DNA of 64,000 bases from Tubiluchus corallicola (lineage: Eukaryota > Animalia > Priapulida): positions 992,001-1,056,000 of the forward strand of contig JAQGDQ010000031.1 in assembly GCA_030141605.1 (NCBI GenBank), given 5' to 3'. The notes under the pieces are model-generated. The model was not told the DNA's origin, ran no database searches, and was given only the letters and a program-made list of their open reading frames with translations. Both the position numbers and the translations under genes were made by a program. Below, piece by piece: positions 598 through 64,000 of this stretch (position 1 is the first letter of the stretch; each line of letters begins with the position of its first letter).

Positions 598-29653
<29,056 letters not shown>

Positions 29654-31930
29654 TTTCTGCGTGTATCTTTTTTGGGGGGAAATTGCACATAATAAAGCAC
29701 GAATCATTTATTTTCACCGATGTCAACCTTGTCAGGCAGAGTTTTCGAGAAATTTCTTTCGCTTTCGTACGTATGATGTGGTACAAATATGTTTCTGTGT
29801 CCTATTCATTGGGATAATGTATAGCTCTTGTTCAGTGAAACCATTCAGCTATATATGCTGTGCAAACAATTATGAGCGCGGGGCTGCTCGCAAAGAAAAG
29901 CGTTTCATGCGCGCAGCCTGGCACACAGCATGCGCTTGTTTGTTGCGTTATCGTGCCAATAAAAAAGTGAGCTTGAAATGTTCAAGAATCTAAATATTGC
30001 CTTTACTGTATTATTGTAGATGGTGTAGACAATACATCAATTTTCTTCTGGTCCTTTGCTTGTGTAATTTGTATATACCGCATTCACACTTCGTATTCAG
30101 TTTATTGGAGTGATTTTTAATAAGACCTATTATTTGACAATTTTTTATTTTGAAGCAGCTGTCCACTAATCTTATTTTGTGGTTAATCTGTGCAGCATGA
30201 TTATATTGCTATTAAAAGAAGAAAAGGCAAAATTGCTTACAGATGAAACAACTTCTTGCGTGAAAAGCTAGAATGCCAAGCTTCGTATGATGCCCTAAAT
30301 TTTTTAGACAGTTTAGTGACAAACATGAATACTGTTCTGAAGTGTTGTTGGGTAGGACAAGAGATAAAAAAATCGATATTACAGAATACAGACTTATACT
30401 ACCTTATTTTCACGGTTACGTGTGATTAACTTCGACGCATACGAAGCTTTATTTTGCTATCATCAGCATGAAATAAAAAGTTACGAAAAAGTAAATGTAG
30501 GGCCTACTTAATATCAATATTGCGGAATTGATGGCGGTCAGGCAATTTTGGCTTGAAATTAGTGTTGATTGTTAGACTGTACTGTAAAGTTTTACCCAAA
30601 ACAGACACAAAACTGAAGAAGAGATTGAAGTTAAACCTGTCAGCAATCTTGTCTTATGTTTCCCATATTGGTCTAAGGAACAGGTGTTGAAATACTGAGA
30701 TACACCTGCCCGTGTTAGCTACTGAATCACAGAACTTCTGCTTGCTAGACTACAAAGTTTTATCGGTGCTAGTATGCACAGGCTTCATAATGGACAGAAC
30801 CATTGTGATGTAGGGGTGTGGTGAAAATAAACAGTATTTAACCTACAATGTATTGCCCTCTCTCCTACAGATAATGGATTGTCTCAAACCAGAATGAAGA
30901 ACCACACAGGAGAAGAGCCGCTGTCTCCCAGCTTCCTGAATGATAGGAAAGCTGAAAGTGTTTTACAACCATTAGGTTCCACTAGAGGTGGTACTTTAGC
31001 TAAATTTCGAAAAAGAACACCAGGAAAGTGTGGCACGTTACGTAAGAAAGCTGCTGGGTGTGAGCATTATTCCATAGATTGTTATTAGTAAAAACTGGAA
31101 ACTCTGCCATATATCACCACACTTCAGCTCTAGTTTTGAAAAAGATCATCAGAACCACAAAGGCTACTAGAGAGAGAAAAAAAGCTGCTGATTGCCAATT
31201 ATGACATTCATCGACTTCATTCTACTAATGACACTAGTGAACTGATGATGGCCAAACAATCTTGGGCTGGAATTTGAGTTGGCGTATCATGCTGTATAGT
31301 TCAGATCTAAACTGCACAGAAGAGCCAAAAAACTGAAGAATGCCAATTGAAGTTAAATTTGCCAGTTGTGTGCATGTCATGTGTCTTCCACATTGGTCGA
31401 TAGAACAGGTGCTGAGATTGTAAGTGCACCAGCACACACTGATACTGATCCATGGAACCTCTACGTGCTAGACTACTTGCAGGTGTTAGACTGTGCATGC
31501 TTCGTAATGGATAGAACCATATCAATGTAGGGATAGGGGTGAAAATAAACAGCATTTCCACTACAGTATAATACAGTATAGCCATTGTGTAAAAAACATA
31601 AGCCGAACATATAGCACATTCTGCAGTAGACCTACATATTCTTGTCATGCGCTTTGTGATGTATGGTATCTAAATCTGTAAAAAGCTTAGCTTAGCTTAC
31701 ACCCTCACTGTAACTCAAGCTAATAAAATTCTAATTTTCAGACCAGGAGTGTGTAAACCACATAGATTACAGTTTCTATAATATATTATTAAGTTAGCAT
31801 GTTGCCGCTCTTCAGGCCTACCTCCCAGATAATCTCTGCCTGGTTCCGGTGGCGCCCATAGTGTTGGTTTTTGAAGGTATTTTCAGAGACATTCCTTAGA
31901 TGGCGCGCAAGTTCACCAGTTGTTTTAAAA

Positions 31931-40900: not shown

Positions 40901-43900
40901 TTAAAAATCTTTGTTGTTACTACGAGTGTACAAAACTATAAATAAAACATGTTGATATCTTGCATGGTGTTTATGTCAATGAATGTAACAATGGTATTGT
41001 AATTAGTGCATCGAGTCGTTCTTTCTTATTTACTGAAAAGGCGTGCTAAATTCTGATGGAAATTGTTAGAAATTTATAGTCTGTTTTCTTAGTGTCTGTG
41101 CTTTTGTCAGTGGTCAGTAAATTCATTAAAGTTTATCTTTGTTTTAGCCAAAAGAAAGACGAGTATTTCTAGAGTGATAGTAAAAGATGGTACTGGTGTG
41201 ATCACAATTAATGACGTACCATTTGAGCGTTATTTTAGTGACATGGAATCCTTGCAGCACAGGTATTCTTGCTGTACTGTATTGTGACAATCTTTGTCTG
41301 TTAAGCCAGGCTTTCACTGGGTTTGCGACTTCCGTGACTATCTGAAAATTTCTAAATCCAATAGTAGCTATAATGCACTAAACTTTCGCTAAACAGTCGC
41401 TGTACATTGTTGAGTGTTCGCCGTTGTCGCAAAAAGACTGCCAACTTCAGAAAAATTTAAATGTTTAAAATTAGTCATCAGAGTCGAAAAACTCGCCACT
41501 TTGCCAAAACTTTGCAAAACTGTCGTAAAGTTGTCGTAACATGAGCCAATCATTTGCATTTGCTTGCGCTGCACTCTGCGAAAATTCCATGAAATTGTCG
41601 TAAAATGAACACAAAATATTTGCGCGAATTTCGTTAAACATTCGCCTTGTTGCAGAAGTCACCAACTACGTGCAAACATGTCGTGCGACATTCTCACGAT
41701 TGTTGCTTGAGAAAAAAGCCCAAAATTTGCTAAAAATCAGGCGACAATTGTGCAAACAAAAATTTTTATTGTTTAAATTTTCAAAAGTCGCAGCCCTGTG
41801 AAACATGCAAGTGATTGAAGCGGTAAAGATTTTCCTTTTTGTAATTTTTTCCAAATTAGTTTCTTCACTTGATGTGTCTTAAACTAAAAAGATTAATATT
41901 TTCTTTTAGAGAGCAAGTTTTGTTTCCCCTGCAGTTCACGGATATGCTAGGAAAATTAGATGTACAAGCATACGTAACATTAGGTGGTCCCACCGGGCAG
42001 TCCGGAAGTATTCGTCACGCCCTGTCGCTAGCCTTGTGTAGTTTTGTGGATAAAGATGTAGTGGAACGAATGAGATTAGGTGAGTGCTGGCTAGCTGTCT
42101 AGCTCAGGCATGGTTTGAGATGTAGTCATTTATTTTGCCACCATGCCAAATATTATATTACCATAGTTTTTTAATTACAGTTAAAAAAAGCAAATAAAAG
42201 TATACTCATAAGACATAAACAATAGGAAACTATATAATTTGCAGTGAATCAAAATGCTACCATGTACTAGTTTCATGTGCACATTAACATGGCGACCAGA
42301 CGGGTACTCTACATTTACAACACTACAAACATTTGTGTATTTTTACAGTAAAACAATCATACTGTAATTCTATTAGTGTTGGATACAGTTGAGTTCAGAA
42401 GCTTGCTTTTGTTAAAACCAGTGTACATTAACTTAGATGAATTAATGGAAACATTTCACGGCCTTCCCACTGCTGTATTCTGCACAATTCGCAGATGCTT
42501 AGCAAAAAAACGTTATTCATCTAGCTAATTCTAGTATTGGTTAATTAATGTTTCGATGTGTGATAGTAGCTAAATCTGTGATTGTTCTGTAGGGCTTGGT
42601 TACGTCTCCATAATTAATTTCTATTGCCAGTGAATGATGAATTGTATGGGCAAACAATACTAGCAAAGTACTGAAGTATCTCTATTAAGCTTTCTCTGGA
42701 TCGTAACTGCATCAGTGCCGATAGATTGTCTTCCCTATTTTAAGGATAAGATTCCTATAGATTGAAGAGATCTGGTTTATCTTAATGTTTATTGGAGTGT
42801 TGCCGAGAAGTCACTAACTGCAATGTTTATTTGTGTGGAGAGAGGAATTTATTTTATTTTAGAATTCTGCCCTGCTCAACTTCCAGTAAACGCAATGAGC
42901 ATTTGATGATGATATTAACTTTTGTTGTAATTGTCAGAGTAACGCACACAATATAAGCGTGCTCGCTTATTAAAATCATCCATGTCGGCAATTAAGCCTT
43001 TCTAGTTATTCACATATTCTGAATCTCCATTTCATGAGGATTATTTTGATACCAAGCTCATCACTCTGTGTCATTTCTAAGCTGAGATAATCCCGAGTTG
43101 AAGTTTGGTACATGCTGCACACTAAAAAACATAATCTTGAGAAAATCTCTGTTAAAGTTAGCCATTGTTATTTGTCGCGTTTCTACGAAACACTTAGCAA
43201 CCGCACAAATGTTGGTTGCTACGGACTTTGCAAAAACACATTGATGTTATGTTTGAATCCAGTAGATGGTTCTTGCTGGTGAAAATCTGGGCTTGCAACA
43301 GAGAAAACCTGAAGCAAAATGAATGCTTCCATGAGTTACTACCAGAGTTTGAAAATGCAAGTTTTTCTCAATTGCAGTAGTGCTAACAATGCCGACTTAT
43401 GGATGGTTTTGGTTTGCAAGCACACACATGTGCAAGAATACATATTTTAAATTCTTGCTATTAGTTTCGGTTACTTTCTTGTCATGGTTTTCAAGTCAGA
43501 CATCGAGGCTTGTGAATGTGTGCAGTTCGGTGCTTTGTATTGTATATTTCAAGAAAGTGAAATGTGTTTTTTGCAGTCATGGTAACTGATTCATATTTAT
43601 TTTTGTAGTTGGGTTACTGACCCGGGACATACGTCGGAAAGAAAGGAACAAGCCTGGACAGCCTGGTGCAAGAAAGAAGGCAACATGGTAATTTTTATTT
43701 TCATACCTTTTGAGTGGCAAATTTGAATTAGCATAAGATAGGAAATATTGGCAGGTGGTTTCATTTTTGTTTAAAAAAAGAGAACAAAAACAATATTACG
43801 AATCAGAAGCAAAGATCACTTGTGATTATGAACTGGTCGGGCAGGAGATGGTTTGAATTTCTCCATTTGAATTCTTCAGAATTCCTCCAATGACAATTTT

Positions 43901-47795: not shown

Positions 47796-48383
47796 TATAA
47801 TAATATTCCAAAAGTGAACTGTTTGCCCAGTTGCCTCGCTTGACTGGACTATAAGGATCTCTTAGAACTGCGAGTTTAACAGGTTCCTGATGCAGCATCT
47901 CATACATAACATGAACAGCTCTCCCAGGTGTACACTAAAAACAAAAAAGATCAAAGGAATATACAACAGCGCAAAGTGGCTGCCAGTAGGTACTATAGGG
48001 ATAGTTCGTCACAAAAATTCCTTATTCACATCATACCATGATTTGAAATGCAAACATACTTTTTCATATTTGGGTTACAGCAGCTAGACTATTTTATTTT
48101 TTAGTTCTAGACATTTATACAACATAGAAGAGGTAAATACTACCGGGTGGCTCAGAAAAAAATTGCCAAAGTTTAGACTACAATAATTAACGGTTATAAT
48201 TAAGGCCTTACCAGCTTTGAAGAGACCTTCCATGGGAAACAACGCCATAATGTATAAATCTTTCAATTGTTTGTCATCTTTGTTCAAAGCATTTGTGATG
48301 TTTAAACTTTGTGGAAAGCAGAAATTACTCTGAAGCAGCAACAGTAACAACAACACAAACGTTTGAATAGGACTTCGCCACAT
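47796..48383 (-). pseudogene. Decayed Venus-flytrap/ANF-domain receptor gene (GABA-B-receptor-like N-terminus)
   Basis: Signal peptide MWRSPIQTFVLLLLLLL and LYIMALFPMEG..AGKALI (48383-~48190). Second exon 47934-47796 reads CTPGRAVHVMYEMLHQEPVKLAVL..SPV, then needs a +1 frameshift to give SEATGQTVHFWNIII before a GT donor. The intervening conserved segment is missing; a TACCGGGTG transposon-end-like motif lies at 48141. Confidence 0.65.
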
Positions 48384-49759
48384 AACCGTAATTCAGCCTT
48401 TACCTTTACTGTTTTAAATGAAAATGTGTTGTCGAGAATCAGTTAAGTATTCGCGAGAAACGTAGGGAACAACAATTTTCTTCTTTTTTTGTTAATGTGG
48501 AATTATTTGACAAGTAGGCGGAGGACTTGGAAACTACTTTTTAGCAGACGGAAAGAAAACCGCTTTTGTGTTAATTTTTTTACAGTTTGGTGTCATTTTG
48601 TATCTTTATAAGTTTTTATAAAAGCATTTAGAGTTCCGATTAATCCACGTGTCTGAAGCACTTGTTTTCGCCTGCCTGCCTTTATTATTTGCACGTTGTC
48701 TGTTTTGTTTGAAACAAGCGCTTACCTGGATATCAGAGGGGGGACACGCCCATTTCCCCCTCGTAAAGGTAAAGTTTTTGTTAAATTTAATCATCAATTA
48801 CCAATGGTAGAAGTGCTACTCGGAAATATATTGGAGAAAATAAATGTTCTATGTCCATGCATGTCTATCTCTATGTCGTTTTTAAAGCAAAATCGCACCC
48901 AATCTTAAACTGTAGGTCAAAGCAACATAGTTCTTAAAATATTGAAAGAAAACGTACTGTTTTTTAAATAATAAATTACATGAAAGAATTATTACCACAC
49001 AAACACAATTTCATGTTTATGCCACTAGTTTTCCGTTGTTGCATGCATTTCGTCATTTGCTGGAAAGACAGGTGTCGCGAACGCGAGGCATGTGACACCA
49101 AGAAAGGTTTGGATTAGCCATGAGCATCTGGCGAGTGGAAAATTTTTTGTTCTAGTTTTACCAGACGAGGTGATGGAGTGTGTTTGTGTTTTCTGTCTTT
49201 GCTGTATTTTTGTCAATTTTGCGTTTATATGTTATAATAAACAGTTGTCTTTTTAAATCATCTATTGAGAAGGAAAATATGTCAGTGTTCGCTATTTCAC
49301 ATTTATGGATTGCTGAAATCGGATGGTTTCCGAAATGTGGTGCACGAAAACTGGGAGCAATCATGGACAGTCGTGTAAAGATTGTTATTTTTCGTCAGTC
49401 AGCAGCTTAAGAAGTACGAGAGTCTCAGATGATACAACCAGGTATAGGACGAGATTTATGCTTCATTCCCACATTTAGCTGCTTACAGATGTCATCAGGA
49501 CGTTCTGAAAATTCAGTTCACGTTTCCATCGGTACAGTTGGTCAACACAAGTAGCATTTTACAGTTCCTTTCTTTCGTGAAGAAGAGGTCAAGTCTGTGA
49601 TACTGCAGCTTCAGTAGAGCGAAAAGACGTCTTCGATTGTGTAAGCAAATCATATTACAGTTACATTTCAAGTTAAATTTGTATTTGCTTAAAATTTTTG
49701 CCTTATATTTGTCAGTTGAACTTCATATTGTATTCGGTCACGTCAGTATTATCAGTAGA

Positions 49760-49928: not shown

Positions 49929-52900
49929 CAGTCATTTGCAAAAGTTTAAGACGAAGCTCGAGTTTTCGGGATTTTCATCATACTGTACCCCGATTGCATC
50001 AGATTCTTTGTTGATTGCATCATACTGTGGTTTGAAACAGTATGTCTAGTGAGTACCGTAAAACGGGGTGAGTTCCCCACGCCTTACTTAATGGATGACG
50101 TAATGGCCATTGTAGGTTTGCTGTAACTATTGTTCAGTGTTTAATGAACAGATATCATGATCACCGTCATTATAAACAGTTATCTTCTTTCAATTTGCAC
50201 TAGAAGTATTCCATTCTGCGCTACATATTATTTGTCTACTATTTCTTGCTAATTAACATGCCACGCACCTACACCCCTGTACCGGGTCATAGATACCAAA
50301 ATTTTACCCCAGAAGCTGCCCTACATGCCGTCAAGAATACCAACAGGACAATCAGCGCAACGGCAAGGCAATTCGGAGTTCCAAGAAAGACCCTTTCTGA
50401 CAAACTCTCAGGAAGTCATCCGTGGAAGACCGGAGGTCAGCCAGTGTTCTCCGCCGCCGAGGAGCACGAAATTGCCAACACACTCCAAGTGGCCGCTGAG
50501 TGAGGGTTCCCAATGACTGCCATCGATCTCTGACTACTGATTAAGAGTGTTCTTGACGCGAAGGGAATCCAGGAACGACGATTCAAGGCAAACACCCCTG
50601 GAATAGATTTTGTCAAATCATTCGCCCGAAGGAACAATCTGGTTTTCAGAGTGGCTGGCAACATCAAGGGCGCCCGTGCGAAGATCAGTGCACAAGACGT
50701 TCAAGCCTTATTCAAAACGTCCCACCATCGAACATTTTCAACTTCGACGAGACCAACGACGACAACCCCAGTGCCAAAGTAATCCTTACTCGTCTGAGAA
50801 CAAGACGCATCGAGAACATCAAGGACCACTCCAAGGTCGCCGTTTCCCTGATGGCTTGCGGGGCCGCCGACGGGACGATGCTACCACCTATGGTAGTATA
50901 CAAAGCCAAGAACATTTACGAAAACTGGACAAAAGGAGGTCCACGAGGCACTGTCTATGATTGCACAACAAGTGGGTGGTACAACATGGAGACCTTTGAG
51001 CGGTGGTTCACCTCCTTATTTCTTCCTCATGCCAACCAACTTCTTGGGAAAAAAGTTCTCCTTGGCGATAACTTGGCTTCACACTTTTCTCCAGAGGTAA
51101 TCAGGCTGTGCCGAGAACATGACATCCATTTCATAAGCTTGATCCCCAATGCCACGCATCTTCATCAACCGCTTGACGTGGCAGTCTTCAAGGGCCTGAA
51201 AGTCAGATGGAGGCGAATCCTGGACAAGTGGCGGATGGAGACAAAAAGGAATGGGGTCATACCAAAAGAGACTTTCCCGCAACTTCTCAATAGCCTCTGG
51301 GATCAGTCCTCCCAAGCCTTTCGCGAAAGCTTACCATCTGGCTTCCGGGCGTGTGGCTACGTGCCCTTCAGGCCTGATGAAGTGACCAAGAGGTTGCCAG
51401 ATGCCGGTAACTCAAACATTGGCAGGGACTTGGATGACCCTTTGATTGCTCTTTTGAAAGCACAACGACGAAGCCCAAGATAGGGAAGAAGGTTAGCCAT
51501 AAACCAGGAGTTGATTTAGCAGCTGCCGCTTTCCATGGACATGATGGAGCTGGTCCTTCGACTTCGACTAACGCTGCAGGAAATCCAGAAGTGGATATTC
51601 CCGATGAGAACACGGACATCTGCTTTCAATGTGGAATGAATTACCGGGGATATACGGGGCCCAACTGGGTGCAGTGCCTGAACAGCGTAGACATTTAAGA
51701 CTTTATCGGTGTTGATCTACATGTACATGCACCTTGTTATTTTATTGTCATACAAGAAATATAGTTCATGAAGCAAATTTCTGTTATACAGTTTCTAACT
51801 TTTTTTTATTACACTGTACTTTAAATCCTACAAATATTTACAGGTACATTGTTATTTTAAAATTTTAAATACTACTTTGCACGTAATTCGGCTAAAACTA
51901 GATATTTTTCATAATTTTTTCATAGGGTGGCGAACTCACCCCCAACCAAACAATCACAACCAGTTAACTTCAACTGCCTAGAATGGCATTAAACAGTGTT
52001 AAATTGTTAGTGGCGAATTCACCCCACGATAGTGTTTCATTCGAAAGACAATATAAAGCTTGAACTAAGAAAATCGGTTGGGTAATTCTCTTGCTATGGC
52101 AGGAAACATAAAAAATACCCATAAAAAGTGGCGAACTCACCCCGTTTTACGGTATGAGTGACTCATTTGCCTGCCGCTATCCATACAGATCGGCCGTTTT
52201 TGCATGTTTCTTGTGATCCAAAAAATGGGCAAAAAAAATCGTCATTGAGTGAGACTCAGAGGGTTAAAATCGTGACTTTACATCAAGAAGGATATACTGA
52301 AAGGGAGATAGGTGCTAGATTACAGTTTTCCAAGACAGCCGTGCACCAAGCTATTGTCAAATTCGAGACTGATGGCACTTACAGCGATAGGAAACTGTCT
52401 GGCCGTCCGCGGAAGACTACCCAAGGAGACGACCACATCATGAGACGCATGGTGGTATGCTCGCCTATGAGCTCCTGCAAGAAGATGCGGGCTCAGATGC
52501 GCTTGACAGGCTTGGAATTGAGTGCCAGTACAGTTTCTAGGCGTTTGAGCAAGGAGTTTAGCCTTAAAGCCAGAAAGCCGGCCCGTAAGCCACGCCTAAT
52601 GCCAGTAATGAATCGGAAGAGACTGAACTTTGCAAAACGACATTGAGATTAGACCATCCAGGATTGGAACAAAGTCTTGTTCTCGGATGAATCAACCATA
52701 CAGCAGGTTGTAGCTCGAAAGAGGCACGTTAGGAGGCCAGTAGGCAAGCGATTCGATGAGAGATACACTGTAGCCACCATGAAACACCCTCCAAGTCAGA
52801 TGATCTGGAGTGCCATGTCGTGTTCTGGGACAGCTGGACTCTACTTCCTCCCACCCAATACCACTATGAATGGTCCTAGGTATGCCTAATTTCCAGTATG
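49929..52900 (+). mobile_element. Tc1-family transposon, interrupted by the pogo element and 3'-truncated
   Basis: Tc1-like left end CAGTCATTTGCAAAAGTTTAAGAC at 49929. Transposase remnant ~52225-52889: GRPRKTT, STVSRRL, ARKPARKP, DWNKVLFSDES, KHPPSQMIWSAM, NTTMNGPRY, with an A-run frameshift and stops. Confidence 0.85.
50056..52152 (+). mobile_element. pogo/Tigger-like DNA transposon, full length, defective transposase
   Basis: TIRs CCGTAAAACGGGGTGAGTTC(C/G)CCAC at both ends, TA on each side. Transposase from ATG 50258 (psq-type HTH: ISATARQFGVPRKTLSD) with stops/frameshifts, NIFNFDET, LLGDNLASH, HQPLDVAVF. Subterminal GTGGCGAA(C/T)TCACCCC copies near 51927 and 52010. Confidence 0.93.
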
Positions 52901-52936
52901 CCTCTTAGAATGAAGGCAGTATTGACAACTTCGGCG

Positions 52937-54154
52937 GCAGGGGCTGAACTGGGGGGGGGGGGGCGAGGGGGCGCGCCCCCGGTCAAAATTTGCGCCCCCC
53001 TGCCAAATCGGACAAATAACTTTTTTGCAGTGAAAATTGCAGTTCGCATGTAATCATTTTCAATATGAATTAGAATTAGGTAAAAAATGTTTGGTAGCTT
53101 CAATGTGTGTGCAGTCAAAACTCAGTGTGCATAGAGGTGCCTATCACAGTGTAGGCCTACAGGGACCACACACAGTCACAGTTTCTACACACAGGCCAAC
53201 AGGTCTGTGTGCACAGCTATAGGAGTAGCAGCGGTACTATGCTGAAATTTGAGAGTGCCCCTGTGCGTATAGGTACCATGGTGTAGCAGCGTTACGGCAC
53301 TGAACTTGGAATAGGCCTAAACCTTTTGTACGGTACAGCACGCCAAAAACAAATTTGGTAAGTACACTATAGTAATAATTTCATTTTATTGTTTCATATA
53401 ATTTCATTGTTGAACTGTATTTGTATAATTTGGGCTACTTGGCAAAATGTATATCAACGTGCCTTTATAGAATGTGGACTTTACAGAGTGTCGAATATCA
53501 TGTGATATTGAATGGTTTGTGATAGAACAAAAATTAATCAAAATTGTTTCAGAAACCTGCGCAACATGTCTGGGAATAGGGAAGACGACAAAGTTGTACC
53601 ACCTAGAAAACGGCAGAAAACTTTTGCTTTAGACTTTTTTGTCCAAGGAAGTAAAAAGGAATCAGCATATAAAGATGCACTGCAGAAGTCCAAAAAGATA
53701 ATCCTGCCTCTGCCAGTGGAAAGGATCAATCAGTTTCAAAAGTTACAGAAGACGAGAAACAACCGGAGTAATCTACTCAGAAATGAACACAAGAGCAAAT
53801 GACTTAGGGCCTGTGTCTGAGAAACCACGACAACCACATATGACGAAGTATCCGAAAACTGGCCAAGGAAAGAATGCTCGTTCTTTTCAGTATAGTTGGT
53901 TCGGGAAACACTCATGGCTGGAGTACTTGAAGCAGACAGACGCAGCATTTTGTTTTGCATGCAGGCATTTTGGTAAACAAAGACAGATTACTTGGACTGA
54001 AGTCAGATTTAAAAAATGGAAAGACGCAATGCATGATATGCAAAAGCACGAAGAGACGGAATCACACAAGAACAGCATGTCAATGTGGACCCTCTTCAAA
54101 AGCAGTAGTAAAACAGGTGACGTTCAAAAACGGATGGAAAGTTTTCGCGTGTAA
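52937..54154 (+). mobile_element. hAT transposon 5' remnant with TTF-type zinc finger (ZMYM1-like transposase N-terminus)
   Basis: CAGGGGCTGAAC plus G-rich GCGCCCCC left end. ORF 53783-54154: RSFQYSWFGKHSWLEY..DAAFCFACRHF..FKKWK..KHEETESH. Confidence 0.8.
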
Positions 54155-56191: not shown

Positions 56192-58527
56192 CATTTATAT
56201 GCTTAATTAAATTATAAAAGCTTTGCATAATTACTAAAGCATGTTTATTTGAACAATTATGGGTGATTCTCCGAAAATAGGCCGTTTTGTGTCCTCATGT
56301 TTTTTCTCCCGTAGATTTGTTACTTCTGTAATAGTATTTCTAAAATTGTCAAAATAAGTATGTGATTGTGCTAAAAATTAGGTATAATGTACATAACCTG
56401 TGGAATGAATGTCATTTTGAAAACAAAATTGTGACAAAAAATCATTACCATCACTGTTCCCAGCAATGAATTTTTATATATCCGGACCTCTTTTCTTTAA
56501 ATGTTACCTTATCTTGACTTGATAGATATTGTGTACTTCTTGCTGTATGTCCTAGTTATCGATTAGATAATCCGATATACAAAGAAAAGCACATTTAGTT
56601 GCAAATACGGACACTTATTGACATGTCCCTCATTTCAACCTTCATTACTCTAAAAATGTTTGCTAAGCGATCGTGTGAAGCTTTCTGTGAAATTTATTTT
56701 TTCTTGGGGAATTATTATAAGAATCACACCAGATGAACAAATAAACGTAATCTTTTTTTTAATTATTACCATGTGCACTGCAAATGCGTAAAAACCTGAT
56801 AATGTATATTATTTATCAGAATTCGGTGTAGGTCAAAGGACCACCAGTCAAATATCCACAGGTAAATGGAACATCACAAAGAAAGGGCCACCAGTCAAAG
56901 AGCCACCAGATGAAGGACAACTGGTCAAACATTCATCTGAAAAGACAAAGGACCACAAAATAAAAATTAGCAGACGAGGTGAATGTGTGATTCATGTGAA
57001 AAATTATGTGATATACACTGTGCTCTGACCTGATCTGTTCATCAACATACTAAATTGTTATTGTTAAGCCAAGAAACTGGTCACCATTTTCTAAGTTGAG
57101 GTTGATGTCTGCTCAAGCCAGGGTTGTCCATGCGGTTCACAAGAGCTCTGTGTGCAAGCATACATTACCAAGCAAGAAGAACCAGCACTACCAATCCCAA
57201 TAGTGACTATTGTCAAGTCAGTATTGGAATGTTATCAAGTGAAAAGTTTTGGGGAAATAATTACATTCAACCTTACAATTCTAATATGAGATCAATTCCC
57301 ATATCAGGGGCACAAATTTGAGTTGCACTGCGTTAGGCTCATGCTATTTAGAGGCAGCAAGCACGGAACATGTGTCCAATAGAGGAGACGAACAAATTAA
57401 TCATGAGCTGAACTGGAAAATGAATTATGCCTGTAGTAAACATGATAATAGCGGTTCTGCTATTATAACATGATAAAGTTGACTTGTGAGTTGAAGAAGC
57501 CAACAATAAAATTAATGCAGAAAGTTCAAATAACCAATTTTTTCTTTACTGCAGACGACTGCTTTTGAACATGACAGATTAATCATTGAAATGATGATTA
57601 CACCACAAACTGATGAGCAATACTAACCCAAGTCAGGATCACTCTCACAAAGCCATAGCTGCACAAAAATTCTCGAGGATTTTACATCGTAACAGTGATT
57701 TTCTAGCATCACAACAACTGTTGTGATAACATTCATTTCAAAGAAAAAGTAGCAGAGAAGATCGCCAATGCTTAAAGCAGTATGTCTATGAACACCTGAA
57801 TGAATTTCGTGATTATTCTATTAGTGAATATTTCTTTTTATTCAATTTTATATTTATAATATAGTTTTGTTGAATCTCTGTTAAATACCTTAATTGTTAA
57901 AACCACTTCAAGTAAATAAAACTCAATTAATGAGATTCTTTTGCGCCTCAACTACTTTCATTAAAGCAAGTTCCTAACATTATTTCAGGCTTCAACGGAA
58001 TCGCTCAGAACTCACAATCATTTTGAAACTCTGTTAAGAAAACTTTGGTTGAAATGAATCAAACTCTAGTAATGACGTTATGATGTCATTCCTTAACTTT
58101 GTGCAACTTTACGTTTTAACGTTTTACGATTTAAGATATAGGTGTTTCATATAAAATAAATGAATGTATGGTTTTTATTAGAAATGTTTGAAAATTACAT
58201 CACAAATAAATAGGGAAATGACTGGCAAAGTGACTTTAAATGCAATATAGTGAAACAGCCACAAAAATGTTTCTTTTGTGCATGACAAATTTTCTCATAA
58301 CATCTACTTGCACATAATTGCTACATCAGTGATCATACGTAATGTCGTACATTCGAATAGTGTAAAATGACACAAAAGTCGCTGATAGAAAACCTGCTGA
58401 ATCATTTAGTTACTGCTACCGAAATGTTTCAATGCAGTGTCGAACTCAGAAGACCGTACATAATGAACAGATTCCAAATTCTTCAAGCAATACTAATGAC
58501 AGTTCTTTTTGTGGTAGTTTTTATGGA
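56192..58527 (+). repeat. Large direct duplication, copy 1
   Basis: Colinear, highly similar match to 61622-64000 starting CATTTATATGCTTAATTAAATTAT; small indels shift the offset from 5430 to 5473. Confidence 0.95.
56261..56729. mobile_element. Probable MITE inside the duplicated block (second copy ~61691-62206)
   Basis: GGGTGATTCT.. / ..AGAATCACAC imperfect termini. Confidence 0.35.
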
Positions 58528-58925
58528 CTAAATAGTAATATAGATTGTTCAACGACTTTGCAAAAACTTTTAGCATAAAAGACAAACAGAAATTTTGTGC
58601 AAACAAAAGTGATTGACTTTTTTGAATCTCAACGACTTTGCACATAAAATACATGAACAGTTACATGGCGGGTCGCATTTTTAACACAGCAACGCGGCAC
58701 ATCAAGTCGTCCCTAACCTCATTAAATACTGTACTGTAACGGCAGACACTTGGGACACTTCAGTACTTACTATTTTTAGGAAACTTTGTACGTCATGATT
58801 GACGTTTAGCGCGAATGTTTACACAAGTCACGCCACTAGTCATGCGTTGTACTTTGGACTAACTGTTTAACCGTCACTTCTTTGTTCGTTATGAGAGAGT
58901 ATAGACCTGTCTTTATACCGTTCGT

Positions 58926-59530
58926 ATGGCTTACCGTCGGTATCGTCGTTTTGGTAGACGTTTTTCATTGCGTAAAAGATTATTTCACACGGACTTAGAA
59001 GAATAGGTTATGGTCCGGCTAAAACAGCAGTTTCCCGTGCGTACTGGAGACACCGTGCGGCTTATCGTAGAATGGGGCGAAAAAGAGAGTGGAGTGCCCA
59101 GTCGGGTCGCCAGAAGTCGCATAATGCGTTTCTTCGGAGAAGAGGATGGCGGAGATCTAAGAGAAATCAGGACCATAGTAAGATACGCTTTAACAAAAAG
59201 GTATCTGTCGAAGCGATTGTACGGTATAATGGTACGGACTTTAATCCCTCTAATATCCAATTTGGCGAAGGACCTTTTTTACCTGCCCAGTATGAAGACC
59301 CTGTTAACTGGGATAAATGGGATATGTATCAGCAGAAAAGATTTGACCGTATATCATGGAAGGTTAGTAATGTCCGTCTCTTTACCCGTAACATCCATGG
59401 TGGAGATCCTGATACGACATGGAACCAAGACCGAACGCTGCCAATTTACTGGTACCACGATAAATATGAGGAAACCAATCGTTCGGTATTCCCTAAACTG
59501 TGCAATTCTGATGCCAGCAGCGATTGTTGA
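58926..59530 (+). pseudogene. Endogenous CRESS-DNA-virus (circovirus-like) capsid gene fragment, frameshifted and 3'-truncated
   Basis: ATG 58926: MAYRRYRRFGRRFSLRKRLF; a -1 shift between 58976 and 59003 continues GLRRIGYGPAKTAVSRAYWRHRAAYRRMGRKREW...FLRRRGWRRSKRNQDHSKIRFNKKVSV...WDKWDMYQQKRFDRISWKVSNV...PIYWYHD. Long Arg/Tyr-rich arm followed by a beta-type core; intronless; GC-richer than flanks. Confidence 0.65.
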
Positions 59531-59733
59531 TGGTAAAGCTTTCTTGCTGATGTGCATGCTATGGTCTGCATGCTTTTTCATCAGTAGCTATCTACAAAAT
59601 CACCAGGCAGTGCCCAGACTCGGGCTGGACCCCGGCACGGGCGTAAAATGATCAAATAATTAGTCGAAAATTTTTATGCTTAACAGTTCGGGCTCAAAGT
59701 TAAGGCCGAAAGTCTTCAGCTGAGCCTCGGGTT

Positions 59734-60029
59734 GTAAGGTCTTCATTTTTTCCACCATCAGGGGGCTGCAGGTGCACCCCAAATTTAGCTATTTGGGGGG
59801 CTCGTGTTGTAAGGCCTTCATTTTTTCCAACAGCTGGGGAATGCAGGTGGACCCCAAAATTAACTATTTGTGTAGGCAGGAATGCACCTGCAGGCACCCA
59901 GCTGGTGGCATGCCAGCATTGCATGTCTTTACATGTTTGTCACTTTTTAACGTGCATTTTACAAAATCTGCATTGCTTGTAACCCTCCTTAGAAGCACTC
60001 ATCCAAATCTTTCTCTTTTTCTCTTCATC
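59734..60029 (+). repeat. ~295-bp direct repeat, copy 1 (contains an internal ~72-bp repeat)
   Basis: GTAAGGTCTTCATTTTTTCCACCATCAGGGGG...CTCTTCATC recurs at 60863-61153. Confidence 0.9.
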
Positions 60030-60364
60030 TCTTGATTTTCGGCAGACATTACTTCGACCTTATCAGCTGGTTTCGTAGCTTGAATTTTATTGACGACGTC
60101 ACCATTGCAACCGAATTCGGACAACTGCTTTGTAGTAAACGTTCCCGATTTCACCAGCTGAATTAGTAAATTATTGTCGCAACATTTCTCGCATGCCCAT
60201 TGAAATTCGCCCAGCTGACTTAATGCCTCATAAAGTTTCTCTGTTAGTACATGATCTTGCTTTAGGTTTAAACAGTTTATGCACCACCAACGTTCACAGC
60301 TGTCACAAATCAACCCACTTGCAACACGTTGACGACAATTTATGCATTTGTTATCTTTAGCCAT
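59999..60364 (-). CDS. PHD-finger ORF, resembling ORF1 of CR1/L2-type non-LTR retrotransposons; probably a decayed element gene
   Basis: C-x2-C..CDSCERWWCINC..LYEAL..QWACEKC pattern in the 121-aa ORF; intronless; coding-like sequence continues past the stop with frameshifts (59924-59700). Confidence 0.55.
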   Translation of the reverse strand: MAKDNKCINCRQRVASGLICDSCERWWCINCLNLKQDHVLTEKLYEALSQLGEFQWACEKCCDNNLLIQLVKSGTFTTKQLSEFGCNGDVVNKIQATKPADKVEVMSAENQEMKRKRERFG

Positions 60365-60862
60365 AATTAGTCATTACGAAAATGTTCGAAAATTATTTAC
60401 CGGTAGGCAGACGTCCTAGCGAGTAGACGATCGCTCTTTCTTGGTAAACGTAGACTGCATACAAGTATCGTCGCCCACTGATTAGCAAAAAACTACTCTC
60501 TGCTACCAATTTTTGTCGTGTTGACAAAAGGTATAACAGTTAAAATCTTCATCAAACTTTTATTTATAACAGTGAATTATGACATACAGCTACAGCTTTC
60601 ACATTACTGCAGCCATGCAGTCCTGCTTCACACACACTACACTGTATCACACACACTAATACAAATCAGACAACAATTCAATAGTGCTGCCATCTATTAG
60701 TGGCAATGCATACTTTACAGCAACGAAGACCAGTTGAGGTAAAGTCTACACTTAAGTAACAATAGTACAGATTAAATGATTGAATAAGATTATCGCGGCT
60801 TGACGAACTCCATATCCGAGCCTAAGCACTACAGACAAAATCTTCGGTCGTTCACAACGACA

Positions 60863-61153
60863 GTAAGGTCTTCATTTTTTCCACCATCAGGGGGCTGCAG
60901 GTGCACCCCAAATCTAGCTATTTGGGGGGCTCGTGTTGTAAGGCCTTCGTTTTTTCCAACGGCTGGGGAATGCAGGTGGACCCCAAAATTAACTATTTGT
61001 GTAGGCAGGGGTGCACCTGCAGGCAATGGTGGCATGCCAGCATTGCATGTCTTTACATATTTGTCACTTTTTAACGTGCATTTTACAGAATCTGCATTGC
61101 TTGTAACCCTCCTTAGAAGCACTCATCCAAATCTTTCTCTTTTTCTCTTCATC
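60863..61153 (+). repeat. ~290-bp direct repeat, copy 2
   Basis: Near-identical to 59734-60029. Confidence 0.9.
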
Positions 61154-61621
61154 CCTCAACTCTCATGCATGCCATGCACCTTTATCAGTTGATATGTTGG
61201 ATTAATATCACATATTATTACTATACCACAAATATTATGTTTAAAAAGTATTCTGAATGTAAATAGAACTGAATTTGTTCAATGCATAATGCAAATAGAA
61301 CTGAATTTATTCAGTAAGTTTGACAACTACTCTAATGACTAATTTGTCAACGGTTTTTGTTGGTACAACATATGAGTACAATAACAGATCAGTTTTGGTC
61401 GCACTATCTTAGGCTAATACTTTTTGGAGGAAGCACTGAACATGTGTGCAAAAGAGAATACGAGCAAAATGATCATGAATTCCCTGCTAGAAAATGACCA
61501 TAATAATATTATAGTTGCTATGATATTACCATGAATTTATTATTATCTGATGTTATTACCGTGGTAATACCATATTTTGCCTCTGTTACCATACTATGGT
61601 TAGAACATGGTTTAGGCGAAC

Positions 61622-64000
61622 CATTTATATGCTTAATTAAATTATGAAAGCTTTGCATAATTACTAAAGCATGTTTATTTGAACAATTATGGGTGATTTT
61701 CTGAAAATAGGCCGTTTTGTGTCCTCATGTTTTTTCTCCCGTAAATTTGTTACTTCTGTAATAGTATTTCTAAAATTGTCAAAATAAGTACGTCATTGTG
61801 CTAAAAATTTGGTATAATGTACATAACCTGCGGAATGAATGTAATTTTGAAAACAAAATTGTGACAAAAAATCATTACCATCACTGTTCCCAGCAATTAA
61901 TTTTATATATTCGGACCTCTTTTCTTTAAATGTTACCTTATCTTGACTTGATAGATATTGTGTACTTCTTGCTGTATGTCCTAGCTATCGATTAGATAAT
62001 CCGATATACAAAGAAAAGAATATTTAGTTGCAAATACGGACACTTATTGACATGTCCCTCATTTCAACCATCATTACCAAACTGCTATTGAAACACTCAA
62101 CTTTTTGCGTTCATGTGACTGCTACTCAAAAAATGTTTGCTAAGAGATCGTGTGAAGCTTTGTGTGAAATTTATTTTTTCTTGGGGAATTATTATAAGAA
62201 TCACACGAGATGAACAAATAAACGTAAGCTTTTTTTAATTATTACCATGTGCACTGCAAATTTGTAAAAACCTGATAATGTACATTATTTATCAGAATTC
62301 GGTGTAGGTCAAGGGATCACCAGTCAAATATCCACAGGTCAAAGGACCACTGGTAAAAGGATCATCAGAAAGAAAGGGCCACCAGATAAAGGACCACTGG
62401 TCAAACATCTGAAAAGACAAAGGACCACGCGTTAAAGGACCACGAAATAAAAATTAGCAGACGAGGTGAATGTGTGATTCATGTGAAAAATTATGTGAGA
62501 TACACTCTGCTCTGACCTGATCTATTCATCAACATACTAAATTGTTATTGTTAAGCGAAGAAACTGGTCACCATTTTCTAAGTTGAGGTTGATGTCTGCT
62601 CAAACCAGGGTTGTCCATGCGGTTCATAAGAGCTCTGTGTGCAAGCATACATTACCAAGCAAAAAAATCAGCACTACTAATCCCAATAGTGACTATTATC
62701 AAGTCAGTATTGGAATGCTATCAAGTGAAAAGTTTTGGGGAAATAATTACATTCAACCTTACAATTCTAATATGAGATCATATCCCATATCAGGGGCACA
62801 AAATTGAGTTGCACTGCGTTAGGCTCATGCTATTTAGAGGCAGCAAGCATGGAGCATGTGTCCAATAGAGGAGACAAACAAATTAATCATGAGCTGAACT
62901 GGAAAATGAATTATGCCTGTAGTAAACATGATAATAGCGGTTCTGCTATTATAACATGATAAAGTTGACTTATGAGTTGAAGAAGCCAACAATAAAATTA
63001 ATGCAGAAAGTTCAAATAACCAATTTTTTCTTTACTGCAGACGACTGCTTTTGAACATGACAGATTAATCATTGAAATGATGATTACACCACAAACTGAT
63101 GAGCAATACTAACCCAAGTCAGGATCACTCTCACAAAGCCATAGCTGCACAAAAATTCTCGAGGATTTTACATCGTAACAGTGATTTTCTTGCATCACAA
63201 CAACTGTTGCGATAACATTCATTTCAAAGAAAAAGTAGTAGGGAAGATCGCCAATGCTTAAAGCAGTATGTCTATGAACATCTGAATGAATTTCGTGATG
63301 ATTCTATTAGTAAATATTTCTTTTTATTCAATTTTATATTTATAATAATATAATTTTGTTGAGTCTCTGTTAAATACCTTAACTGTTAAAACCACTTCAA
63401 GTAAATAAAACTCAATTAATGAGATTCTTAGTTGCACCTCAACTACTTTCATTAAAGCAAGTTCCTAACATTATTTCAGGCTTCAACGGCATCGCTCAGA
63501 ACTCACAATAATTTTGAAACTCTGTTAAGAAAACTTTGGTTGAAATGAATCAAACTCTAGTAATGACGTTATGATGTCATTCCTTAACTTTGTGTAACTT
63601 TACGTTTTAACGTTTTAAGATAAAGGTGTTTCATATAAAATAAATGAATGTATGGTTTTTATTAGAAATGTTTGAAAATTACATAACAAATAAATGGGGA
63701 AATGACTGGCAAAGTGACTTTAGGTGCAATATAGTGAAACAGCCACAAAAATGTTTGACGAATTTTCTCATAACATCTACTTGCGCATAATTGCTACATC
63801 AGTGATCATACGTAATGTCGTACATTCGAATAGTGTAAAATGACATAAAAATCGCTGATAGAAAACCTGCTGAATCATTTAGTTACTGCTACCGAAATGT
63901 TTCAACGCAGTGTCGAACTCAGAAGACCGTACATAATGAACAGATTCCAAATTCTTCAAGCGATACTAATGACAGTTCTTTTTGTGGTAGTTTTTATGGA
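61622..64000 (+). repeat. Large direct duplication, copy 2 (runs off window end)
   Basis: Matches 56192-58527; paired ORF-track entries 57124-57321 and 62583-62807 are near-identical. Confidence 0.95.

What the first reader, a model, noticed from the sequence alone, without database searches (positions are those of the whole stretch)
58926..59530. Endogenised CRESS/circovirus-like capsid gene in an invertebrate-type genome, with no Rep in view
Seen: an ATG the ORF track missed (58926) encodes MAYRRYRRFGRRFSLRKRLF. One -1 shift joins it to the 59072 ORF, giving ~200 aa: a ~80-aa Arg/Tyr-rich arm, then a core with WDMYQQKRFDRISWKVS. It is intronless and GC-richer than its flanks. Knowledge: Circoviridae-type capsids have an N-terminal Arg-rich DNA-binding/NLS arm followed by a jelly-roll with a (F/Y)xxY(R/K)IxKVxV-like strand, and reported CRESS endogenous elements are mostly Rep-derived. 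Inference: a cap-derived endogenous viral element from a divergent, possibly undescribed ssDNA virus that infected this host's germline.
Basis: partly seen in the sequence, partly recalled or inferred. Interest (0 to 1): 0.85.

Follow-up and report, generated by a model that had tools for sequence, protein, structure and literature searches.

The report
Young viral capsid fossil in invertebrate
A 700-base insert in an invertebrate's chromosome carries a broken, cut-short gene predicted to be the coat protein of a small DNA virus, likely an undescribed circular single-stranded one, and because the same sample also holds the site without the insert it is likely a recent viral fossil that would name this animal as the virus's host.

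Summary
Observation largely confirmed. ATG 58926 opens an Arg-rich start that stops at 59004. An overlapping frame (58976-59530) carries the rest of the arm and a core. That core has one relative among 1.84 billion proteins (E 8e-4), whose cluster-mate is a 330-aa Arg-armed protein on a 2.4-kb contig. Language-model neighbours of both proteins are Cressdnaviricota clusters. Fold support is weak (pLDDT 34).

Public contigs show the frame break and both junctions are real. They also show a version of the site lacking 58796-59525, so the insert is about 700 bp, with no duplication or poly(A), and is probably unfixed. It covers only residues 85-190 of the relative's core, so the gene is truncated. 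There is no Rep or origin in the window.

A second, ~86%-identical fragment forms a closed 219-nt cycle at high depth (tandem array or minicircle). 'Circovirus' is not supported: no PF02443 hit. The scan holds no look-alike of this DNA but noted CRESS fossils in other genomes.

Verdict: a new, cap-only member of a known kind, from an apparently undescribed virus lineage.

The parts
58796..59499 (+). Virus-derived insert (about 704 bp; right edge lies between 59499 and 59525)
   Evidence: X2 contig joins 58795 to 59526 with 28 other letters, of which 8 match 59500-59507; highest CpG count in the window
58796..58925 (+). 130-nt non-coding leader in front of the capsid-like ATG; no nonanucleotide, no strong stem-loop
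   Evidence: absent from the empty version; no NANTATTAC match here; fold z-scores +0.86 and -0.36; CpG o/e 1.6
58926..59006 (+). Start of the capsid-like gene: 26 codons, 8 Arg, then a stop
58976..59182 (+). Remainder of the basic arm in the second frame; the frame break lies in 58976-59003
   Evidence: 16 Arg + 5 Lys in the first 65 residues; break crossed by gap-free contigs
59183..59482 (+). N-terminal part of the capsid core, matching residues 85-190 of the 330-aa free relative P0003; the part matching 191-330 is missing
   Evidence: phmmer E 8e-4 in 1.84 billion proteins; tblastn E 4.7e-8, next best in window E 1.1
59500..59530 (+). Junction zone and chance stop of the truncated frame
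   Evidence: differs between filled and empty versions; no similarity to P0003
58790..58805 (.). 6-bp inverted repeat with 4-nt loop straddling the left junction (possible fold-back at the break; may be chance)
   Evidence: centroid hairpin; junction at 58795/58796
59261..59466 (+). Stretch matched by a second, about 86% identical sequence elsewhere in sample X2 that closes into a 219-nt cycle
   Evidence: 249-nt contig, depth 852, 16 other letters and 1 gap over 59261-59377, joint back from 59466 to 59261 with 14 letters between; 219 + 30 = 249
58581..58631 (.). High-copy host repeat just left of the insert
   Evidence: depth 6,000-10,000 in X2 with many loose ends, also in X4, X5, X6
59734..60032 (.). 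Host repeat right of the insert, repeated at 60863-61156 (95%)

Best explanation
This is a 700-bp insert in an invertebrate chromosome that holds a frame-broken, 3'-truncated gene predicted to be the capsid of a small ssDNA virus, likely an undescribed CRESS-DNA lineage, likely captured recently when a host DNA break was repaired by end-joining. Shown: the insert's edges, the version of the site without it, the absence of target-site duplication, poly(A), Rep and origin, the frame break, the loss of the C-terminal part, and one free relative. Inferred: that the virus replicated in this animal's nuclei, that a piece of its DNA (130-nt leader plus the 5' part of cap) was patched in while about 19-28 host bases were lost, that it entered the germline, and that it is not yet fixed. 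It likely makes no capsid; the default expectation is a neutral fossil. A second, about 86% identical capsid fragment in the same sample likely records another capture from a related strain and is likely amplified head to tail.
For: Homology: 1 hit in 1,835,955,588 proteins, E 8e-4, 29% identity, found with a query that left out most of the arm; its cluster has 2 members, on contigs of 2,366 and 2,512 nt; P0003 has an MAY-led Arg/Tyr arm like the window's. Atlas: window frame 0.91, 175 of 256 features, cluster 29% Circo_capsid; P0003 0.95, 205 of 256, cluster 14% Circo_capsid, 92% viruses. Fold of P0003: the top 8 of 48,161 chains are all ssDNA-virus capsids (Z 5.0-5.4); named CRESS capsids at E 5.5e-3 and 8.7e-3 in BFVD. 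Integration: animal genes and transposons around it; X1 contig 58707-59679 bridges both junctions; X2 holds a path 58795 to 59526 at depth 106.6, about half the 184-217 of long contigs; a second sample, X4, holds 59162-59312 with no difference. Youth: top CpG count of the window. Precedent: cap-derived elements in vertebrates and insects.
Against: The homology rests on one cluster at E 8e-4; the pairwise shuffle test (118 against a maximum of 62 in 5,000) is not independent because that hit was picked as best. Atlas recognition values (1942, 1945) are under the tool's 2300 mark, so the scores are weak evidence. Both models are low confidence (pLDDT 38.8, 34.2) and Z under 8 may be only a common arrangement; the best structural rows are parvoviruses, not CRESS viruses. 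No Pfam hit. No match to sampled CRESS capsids: best E 0.12 and 0.05 among 254 ORFs, best hhalign probability 0.95% over 7 clusters. The Rep of the relative's contig could not be seen. The empty path appears in X2 only (1 of the 6 runs laid over), with 30 letters on its shorter side; depth is no copy number; filled depth (167-197) exceeds its own left flank (129), and X2 differs from the window at 2 places where X1 does not, so more than one filled copy may exist. X1-X3 may be the sample the window came from, and X4's relation to it is not known.
Confidence: 0.75

Rival explanations
1. It is a capsid fossil, but from another ssDNA group with a single jelly-roll capsid: an anellovirus/gyrovirus-like or a parvovirus/densovirus-like virus.
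For: Atlas ranks 2-3 for P0003 are Gyro_capsid clusters at 0.93 and an IHHNV-capsid-containing cluster scores 0.89; rank 3 for the window frame is a Cossaviricota-rich cluster at 0.91; VIA-align's top rows are parvoviruses; no CRESS capsid of my sample matches.
Against: The first Atlas hit is a Cressdnaviricota cluster for both proteins; P0003 is 330 aa against 445-449 aa for the gyrovirus clusters; contigs of 2.4-2.5 kb are CRESS-sized and short for parvoviruses (own knowledge; they may be incomplete); an MAY/MPR-type start is found in 22 of 63 capsid-like ORFs of Rep-bearing genomes.
Confidence: 0.15
2. The element is an older, larger viral insertion or part of a host repeat unit; the 'empty' path is a later deletion or a paralogous copy, for example the second unit of the 5.4-kb duplication just past the window's end, so it says nothing about youth.
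For: 56192-58527 is repeated at 61622-64000 at 92% and runs off the window before the insert's position; filled depth is above one-haplotype depth and two variants exist; the left flank 58640-58795 is itself CpG-rich (o/e 1.05).
Against: The empty path carries 28 letters not found in the filled version, 8 of which match the right junction (chance about 1%), which fits loss of host bases at insertion better than a clean deletion; its depth and that of the linked flank variants (99.6-106.6) are about half of long-contig depth; the left flank is multi-copy in X2.
Confidence: 0.25
3. It is not viral: a host protamine-like or transposon-derived frame, or chance, that resembles a capsid through Arg richness.
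For: No Pfam, PDB, IMG/VR or JGI hit; weak folds.
Against: The only relative was found through the non-basic core; the stretch is a discrete insert with foreign CpG content; every named family in the Atlas lists is a viral capsid; no transposon family hits it.
Confidence: 0.05
4. It is an assembly chimera with a free virus present in the sample.
For: The bridging runs may be the source sample; all evidence is contigs, not raw reads.
Against: Both junctions are bridged in one contig, depth is like that of the flanks, the gene is broken and truncated, no Rep is near, and no high-depth contig covers the 5' part of the gene.
Confidence: 0.03

Closest known systems
Endogenous circoviral / CRESS elements (CVe) of animals (PMC6069186, PMC6372831; passages read)
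   Same: Fragment of a small ssDNA virus inside long host DNA, degraded by a frame break; cap-only cases exist (sloth CVe-Choloepus); tandem copies exist (cyprinid fish).
   Different: In PMC6069186 all newly found sequences from 675 animal genomes were rep-derived and none cap-derived; this one is cap-only, in an invertebrate, and too divergent for Circo_capsid. A version of the site without the insert is seen here.
Krikovirus (Draupnirviridae) Cap-like EVEs (PMC10193959; passages read)
   Same: [quoted passage not shown]
   Different: Those are described as often ancient, with many stops and lower GC than free relatives; no krikovirus Cap was compared directly here.
Naryaviridae/Nenyaviridae/Vilyaviridae EVEs of Entamoeba and Giardia (PMC7493932; passages read)
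   Same: EVEs used to name the host of an orphan CRESS lineage; a tandemly repeated element (10 kb) and small-RNA peaks on EVEs are reported.
   Different: Protist hosts, whole genomes with Rep and Cap; here an animal, a cap fragment, and a putative repeat unit of only 219 nt.
Unnamed Logan proteins P0002/P0003
   Same: MAY-led Arg/Tyr arm, 25-29% identity over about 100 core residues, shared W..W..YQ.K, WK.SN.R and IY.YH blocks.
   Different: P0003 is full length (330 aa) on a 2.4-kb contig; host and Rep not seen.

Membership tests
Circoviridae | Capsid matching Circo_capsid (PF02443) | tested here: not met
   0 Pfam families at E<=10 for the window frame, P0002 and P0003; BFDV capsid matches only the basic arm, E 0.16-0.17
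Circoviridae | Circovirus-type Rep in ambisense layout | not testable with these tools
   the insert holds no Rep; the relative's contig could not be fetched
Circoviridae / CRESS-DNA viruses | Nonanucleotide at the top of a stem-loop origin | tested here: inconclusive
   none in the insert, but only 130 nt of non-coding DNA were captured
CRESS-DNA viruses (Cressdnaviricota) | HUH + SF3 Rep on a small circular genome | not testable with these tools
   fragment lacks it; relative's contigs are 2,366 and 2,512 nt
CRESS-DNA viruses (Cressdnaviricota) | Capsid with N-terminal basic arm | tested here: met
CRESS-DNA viruses (Cressdnaviricota) | Single jelly-roll capsid core | tested here: inconclusive
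   strand-helix-strand order predicted; best structural rows are ssDNA capsids but Z<=5.4 at pLDDT 34; window core alone gives nothing at E<=0.001; first Atlas hits are Cressdnaviricota clusters
Endogenous viral element | Embedded in long host DNA with read-supported junctions | tested here: met
   host genes and transposons in the window; X1 contig bridges both junctions
Endogenous viral element | Inherited in the germline / present in more than one individual | tested here: inconclusive
   151 nt of the core in a second sample X4, no junction covered; X5 and X6 cover neither insert nor unique flanks
LINE-retroposed viral mRNA | 3' poly(A) and target-site duplication | tested here: not met
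   3' truncation, no poly(A), host bases replaced rather than duplicated
Anelloviridae (gyrovirus VP1 / ORF1) | Capsid matching Gyro_capsid or TT_ORF1 | tested here: not met
   0 Pfam families at E<=10; Atlas ranks such clusters below the CRESS cluster

The most novel reading that the evidence does not exclude
An undescribed ssDNA virus lineage is colonising this animal's germline now: at least two strains have left capsid pieces, one still segregating and one amplified into a 219-bp (73-codon) capsid-derived tandem array that serves as a small-RNA template against the virus.
Probability: 0.12. Interest if true: 0.65.

Novelty: new member of a known kind. Interest (0 to 1): 0.38.

Why it matters
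Most CRESS-DNA viruses are known only from metagenomes with no host, and endogenous copies are the main way to name one. Screens use known Rep and Cap probes and recover almost only Rep in invertebrates (PMC6069186); this element has no Pfam, PDB or IMG/VR match and would be missed, which fits that paper's suggestion that divergent caps go undetected. If right, it ties the orphan P0002/P0003 capsid lineage to an invertebrate host, and the filled and empty versions give a base-level view of how such DNA is captured. The 219-nt cycle offers a direct test of whether capsid fragments get amplified and feed small-RNA immunity. The phenomenon itself is known and the element is probably a dead fragment.

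Tried and rejected
No whole genome is held, so copy number and Rep elsewhere in the assembly could not be searched. Word-indexed protein searches: 0 of 27 candidates for P0001; only P0002 itself among 16 and 211 candidates for P0002 and P0003. PDB sequences: 0 hits for P0001; arm-only BFDV hits for P0003 and A2, plus a glutathione S-transferase at E 0.25. IMG/VR: 0 confirmed of 3, 0 and 172 pattern matches. JGI metagenomes: 0 of 238 and 0 of 191. Phage records: no match. Single-sequence model of the window core was uninformative. Profile comparison with CRESS capsids from 78 of 122 fetched loci (those of 1,500 nt or more; a small part of about 1,800 matching stretches): nothing significant; 41 of 58 cores fell in the 7 clusters tested. 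Origin search: no nonanucleotide, fold z-scores from +0.86 to -1.16 over 7 stretches. Programmed frameshifting: I saw no canonical slippery heptamer in the overlap (read; not computed). Purifying selection between the window copy and the 219-nt copy: not seen; 4 of the 10 listed differences (of 16) are at third codon positions. The overlapping 214-codon frame 59007-59651 has no Pfam hit. No RNA holder listed; X5 and X6 do not cover the insert; these blanks are no evidence. The empty-site letters are not found elsewhere in the window. Literature: two searches for an endogenous cressdnavirus capsid in invertebrates or a polymorphic tandem cap element gave 0 papers and 8 unrelated listings; a priapulid search listed 3 papers, none on ssDNA viruses by title or abstract start; a tandem/piRNA search listed 12 general papers. 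Supplementary tables of the EVE screens were not opened and may list comparable cap-only elements.

Full report
Observation. ATG 58926 opens 26 codons (8 Arg) and stops at 59004-59006. A second + frame is open from 58976 to 59530 and carries the rest of a basic arm (16 Arg, 5 Lys in 65 residues) and a non-basic core with WDMYQQKRFDRISWKVS. Such an Arg-rich start is rare here: 2 of 778 ATG-led open stretches, the other a microsatellite. The frame break lies in the overlap 58976-59003 and is crossed without gaps by contigs of three runs of one sample. GC is 44.0% against 33.1% on the left but 44.9% on the right; CpG is the clearer mark, the highest count of 1266 windows.

Context. The window is animal DNA: a minus-strand receptor guanylyl cyclase (ANF_receptor, kinase and cyclase exons), ribosomal protein S9/S16 exons, and LINE, DDE_1, Tc3 and hAT remnants. 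The element lies between two copies of a duplication (56192-58527 and 61622-64000, 92%), among high-copy repeats. No Rep family hits any of 355 ORFs, and a profile of 69 Reps from IMG/VR genomes gives best E 0.78. No genome is held. An earlier unchecked note on this genome suggests a priapulid host (e1-10418063); I did not test that.

What the protein is. Pfam, PDB sequences, the word-indexed database, IMG/VR, JGI metagenomes and phage records gave nothing. An exhaustive phmmer search with the core found 1 protein in 1.84 billion: P0002, E 8e-4, 29% identity. Its cluster-mate P0003 is 330 aa with an MAY-led Arg/Tyr arm; both come from contigs of 2.4-2.5 kb. The match covers P0003 residues 85-190 against 59183-59482 and nothing in the window matches residues 191-330, so the window copy is truncated. 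The Atlas puts both proteins first beside Cressdnaviricota clusters that contain Circo_capsid members (0.91 with 29%; 0.95 with 14%), followed by gyrovirus, parvovirus and other capsid clusters, though recognition values are under the tool's mark. The AlphaFold model of P0003 is poor (pLDDT 34); its top 8 matches among 48,161 chains are parvovirus capsids at Z 5.0-5.4, with BFDV capsid at Z 4.2, rmsd 3.3 over 102 residues and ribosomal proteins interleaved from rank 9; in BFVD two unnamed proteins pass E 0.001 and named CRESS capsids follow. Direct comparison with capsid-like ORFs of 78 Rep-bearing genomes was not significant. Each line is weak; all point to an ssDNA-virus capsid, most to a CRESS one. 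Membership of Circoviridae is not supported.

Anatomy of the insertion. One X1 contig (58707-59679, 1 difference) bridges both ends. Run X2 of the same sample holds a path from 58795 to 59526 that skips 730 nt and has 28 other letters, at depth 106.6, beside flank variants at 99.6; long contigs of that run sit at 184-217. Eight of the 28 letters match 59500-59507 (chance about 1%), so the insert is most likely 58796-59499: a 130-nt leader plus the 5' part of the gene, replacing about 19-28 host bases, with no duplication and no poly(A). That pattern fits capture at a break by end-joining (inference from general knowledge), not retroposition of an mRNA and not Rep-mediated insertion at an origin, since no nonanucleotide is present. 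Half depth fits one haplotype, but depth is no copy number, the empty path is seen in X2 alone, filled depth (167-197) exceeds its left flank (129), and X2 differs from the window at 59453 and 59481 where X1 does not; more than one filled copy, or an empty paralogue past 64000, remains possible. A second sample, X4, which also holds host flank DNA, has 59162-59312 with no difference at depth 4.7 against about 9-10 for several other contigs.

A second copy. At 80% likeness X2 shows a 249-nt contig at depth 852 that matches 59261-59377 (16 differences, 1 gap) and goes back from 59466 to 59261 with 14 letters between. The unit is 219 nt and 219 + 30 equals the contig length, as expected for a closed cycle: a head-to-tail array of a capsid fragment or a small circle. 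No high-depth contig covers the 5' part of the gene, which argues against a whole free virus. It was laid in X2 only of the 4 runs tried at that setting. Four of the 10 listed differences are at third positions, so no selection signal.

Mechanism, with basis. Shown: discrete insert, empty version, broken and truncated frame, no Rep or origin, one free relative. Inferred: nuclear infection by a CRESS-like virus, capture by end-joining, germline entry, recent age, no protein function. Confidence 0.75 for the whole; about 0.9 that it is an ssDNA-virus capsid fossil of some kind.

Comparison. Endogenous CRESS elements are well known. PMC6069186 (passages) found only rep-derived new elements in 675 animal genomes and suggested divergent caps escape detection; PMC3198968 (passages) tabulates 302 Rep against 3 capsid sequences; PMC6372831 (passages) lists a cap-only case in sloth and tandem genomes in cyprinids; PMC10193959 (passages) reports 38 Cap-like EVEs, some in insects; PMC7493932 (passages) reports a tandem element and small-RNA peaks; PMC6186406 (passages) reports a cyclovirus element with Rep and capsid in a nematode. 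The scan has no look-alike of this DNA but noted CRESS fossils in other genomes. So this is a new member of a known kind, less common for being cap-only, very divergent, apparently young and accompanied by an amplified fragment. Interest 0.38.

Noticed in passing
run X2, matching window 59261-59466: A second capsid-related sequence, about 86% identical, closes into a 219-nt (73-codon) cycle at depth 852: tandem array or minicircle elsewhere in the sample.
   Followed up: partly
window 56192-58527 and 61622-64000: Duplication at 92% identity with a period of about 5.4 kb; the second unit leaves the window about 270 bp before the position of the insert.
   Followed up: partly
window 1431-29707 (-): Receptor guanylyl cyclase gene: ANF_receptor exon at 28973-29707, kinase-like exons 9.6-13.5 kb, cyclase exons 1.4-8.0 kb, with a LINE RT remnant at 14030-15349 in an intron.
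   Followed up: no
window 48087-48392 (-): Frame with a signal-peptide-like start that looks by eye like the first exon of another receptor; no Pfam hit.
   Followed up: no
window 41093-42099 (+): Exons of ribosomal protein S9/S16 (PF00380).
   Followed up: no
window 59999-60370 (-): 123-codon Cys-rich frame with a weak PHD-finger match (E 0.022) inside a high-copy repeat (depth over 1,000 in X2), probably part of a mobile element; X4 shows a weakly supported joint 58420 to 59973.
   Followed up: no
window 50204-54151: GC-rich transposon cluster: DDE_1 (pogo-like) frame 50557-51483, Tc3-type transposase 52158-52646, and an unclassified frame 53702-54154.
   Followed up: no
window 27875-27982: Perfect 108-nt palindrome.
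   Followed up: no
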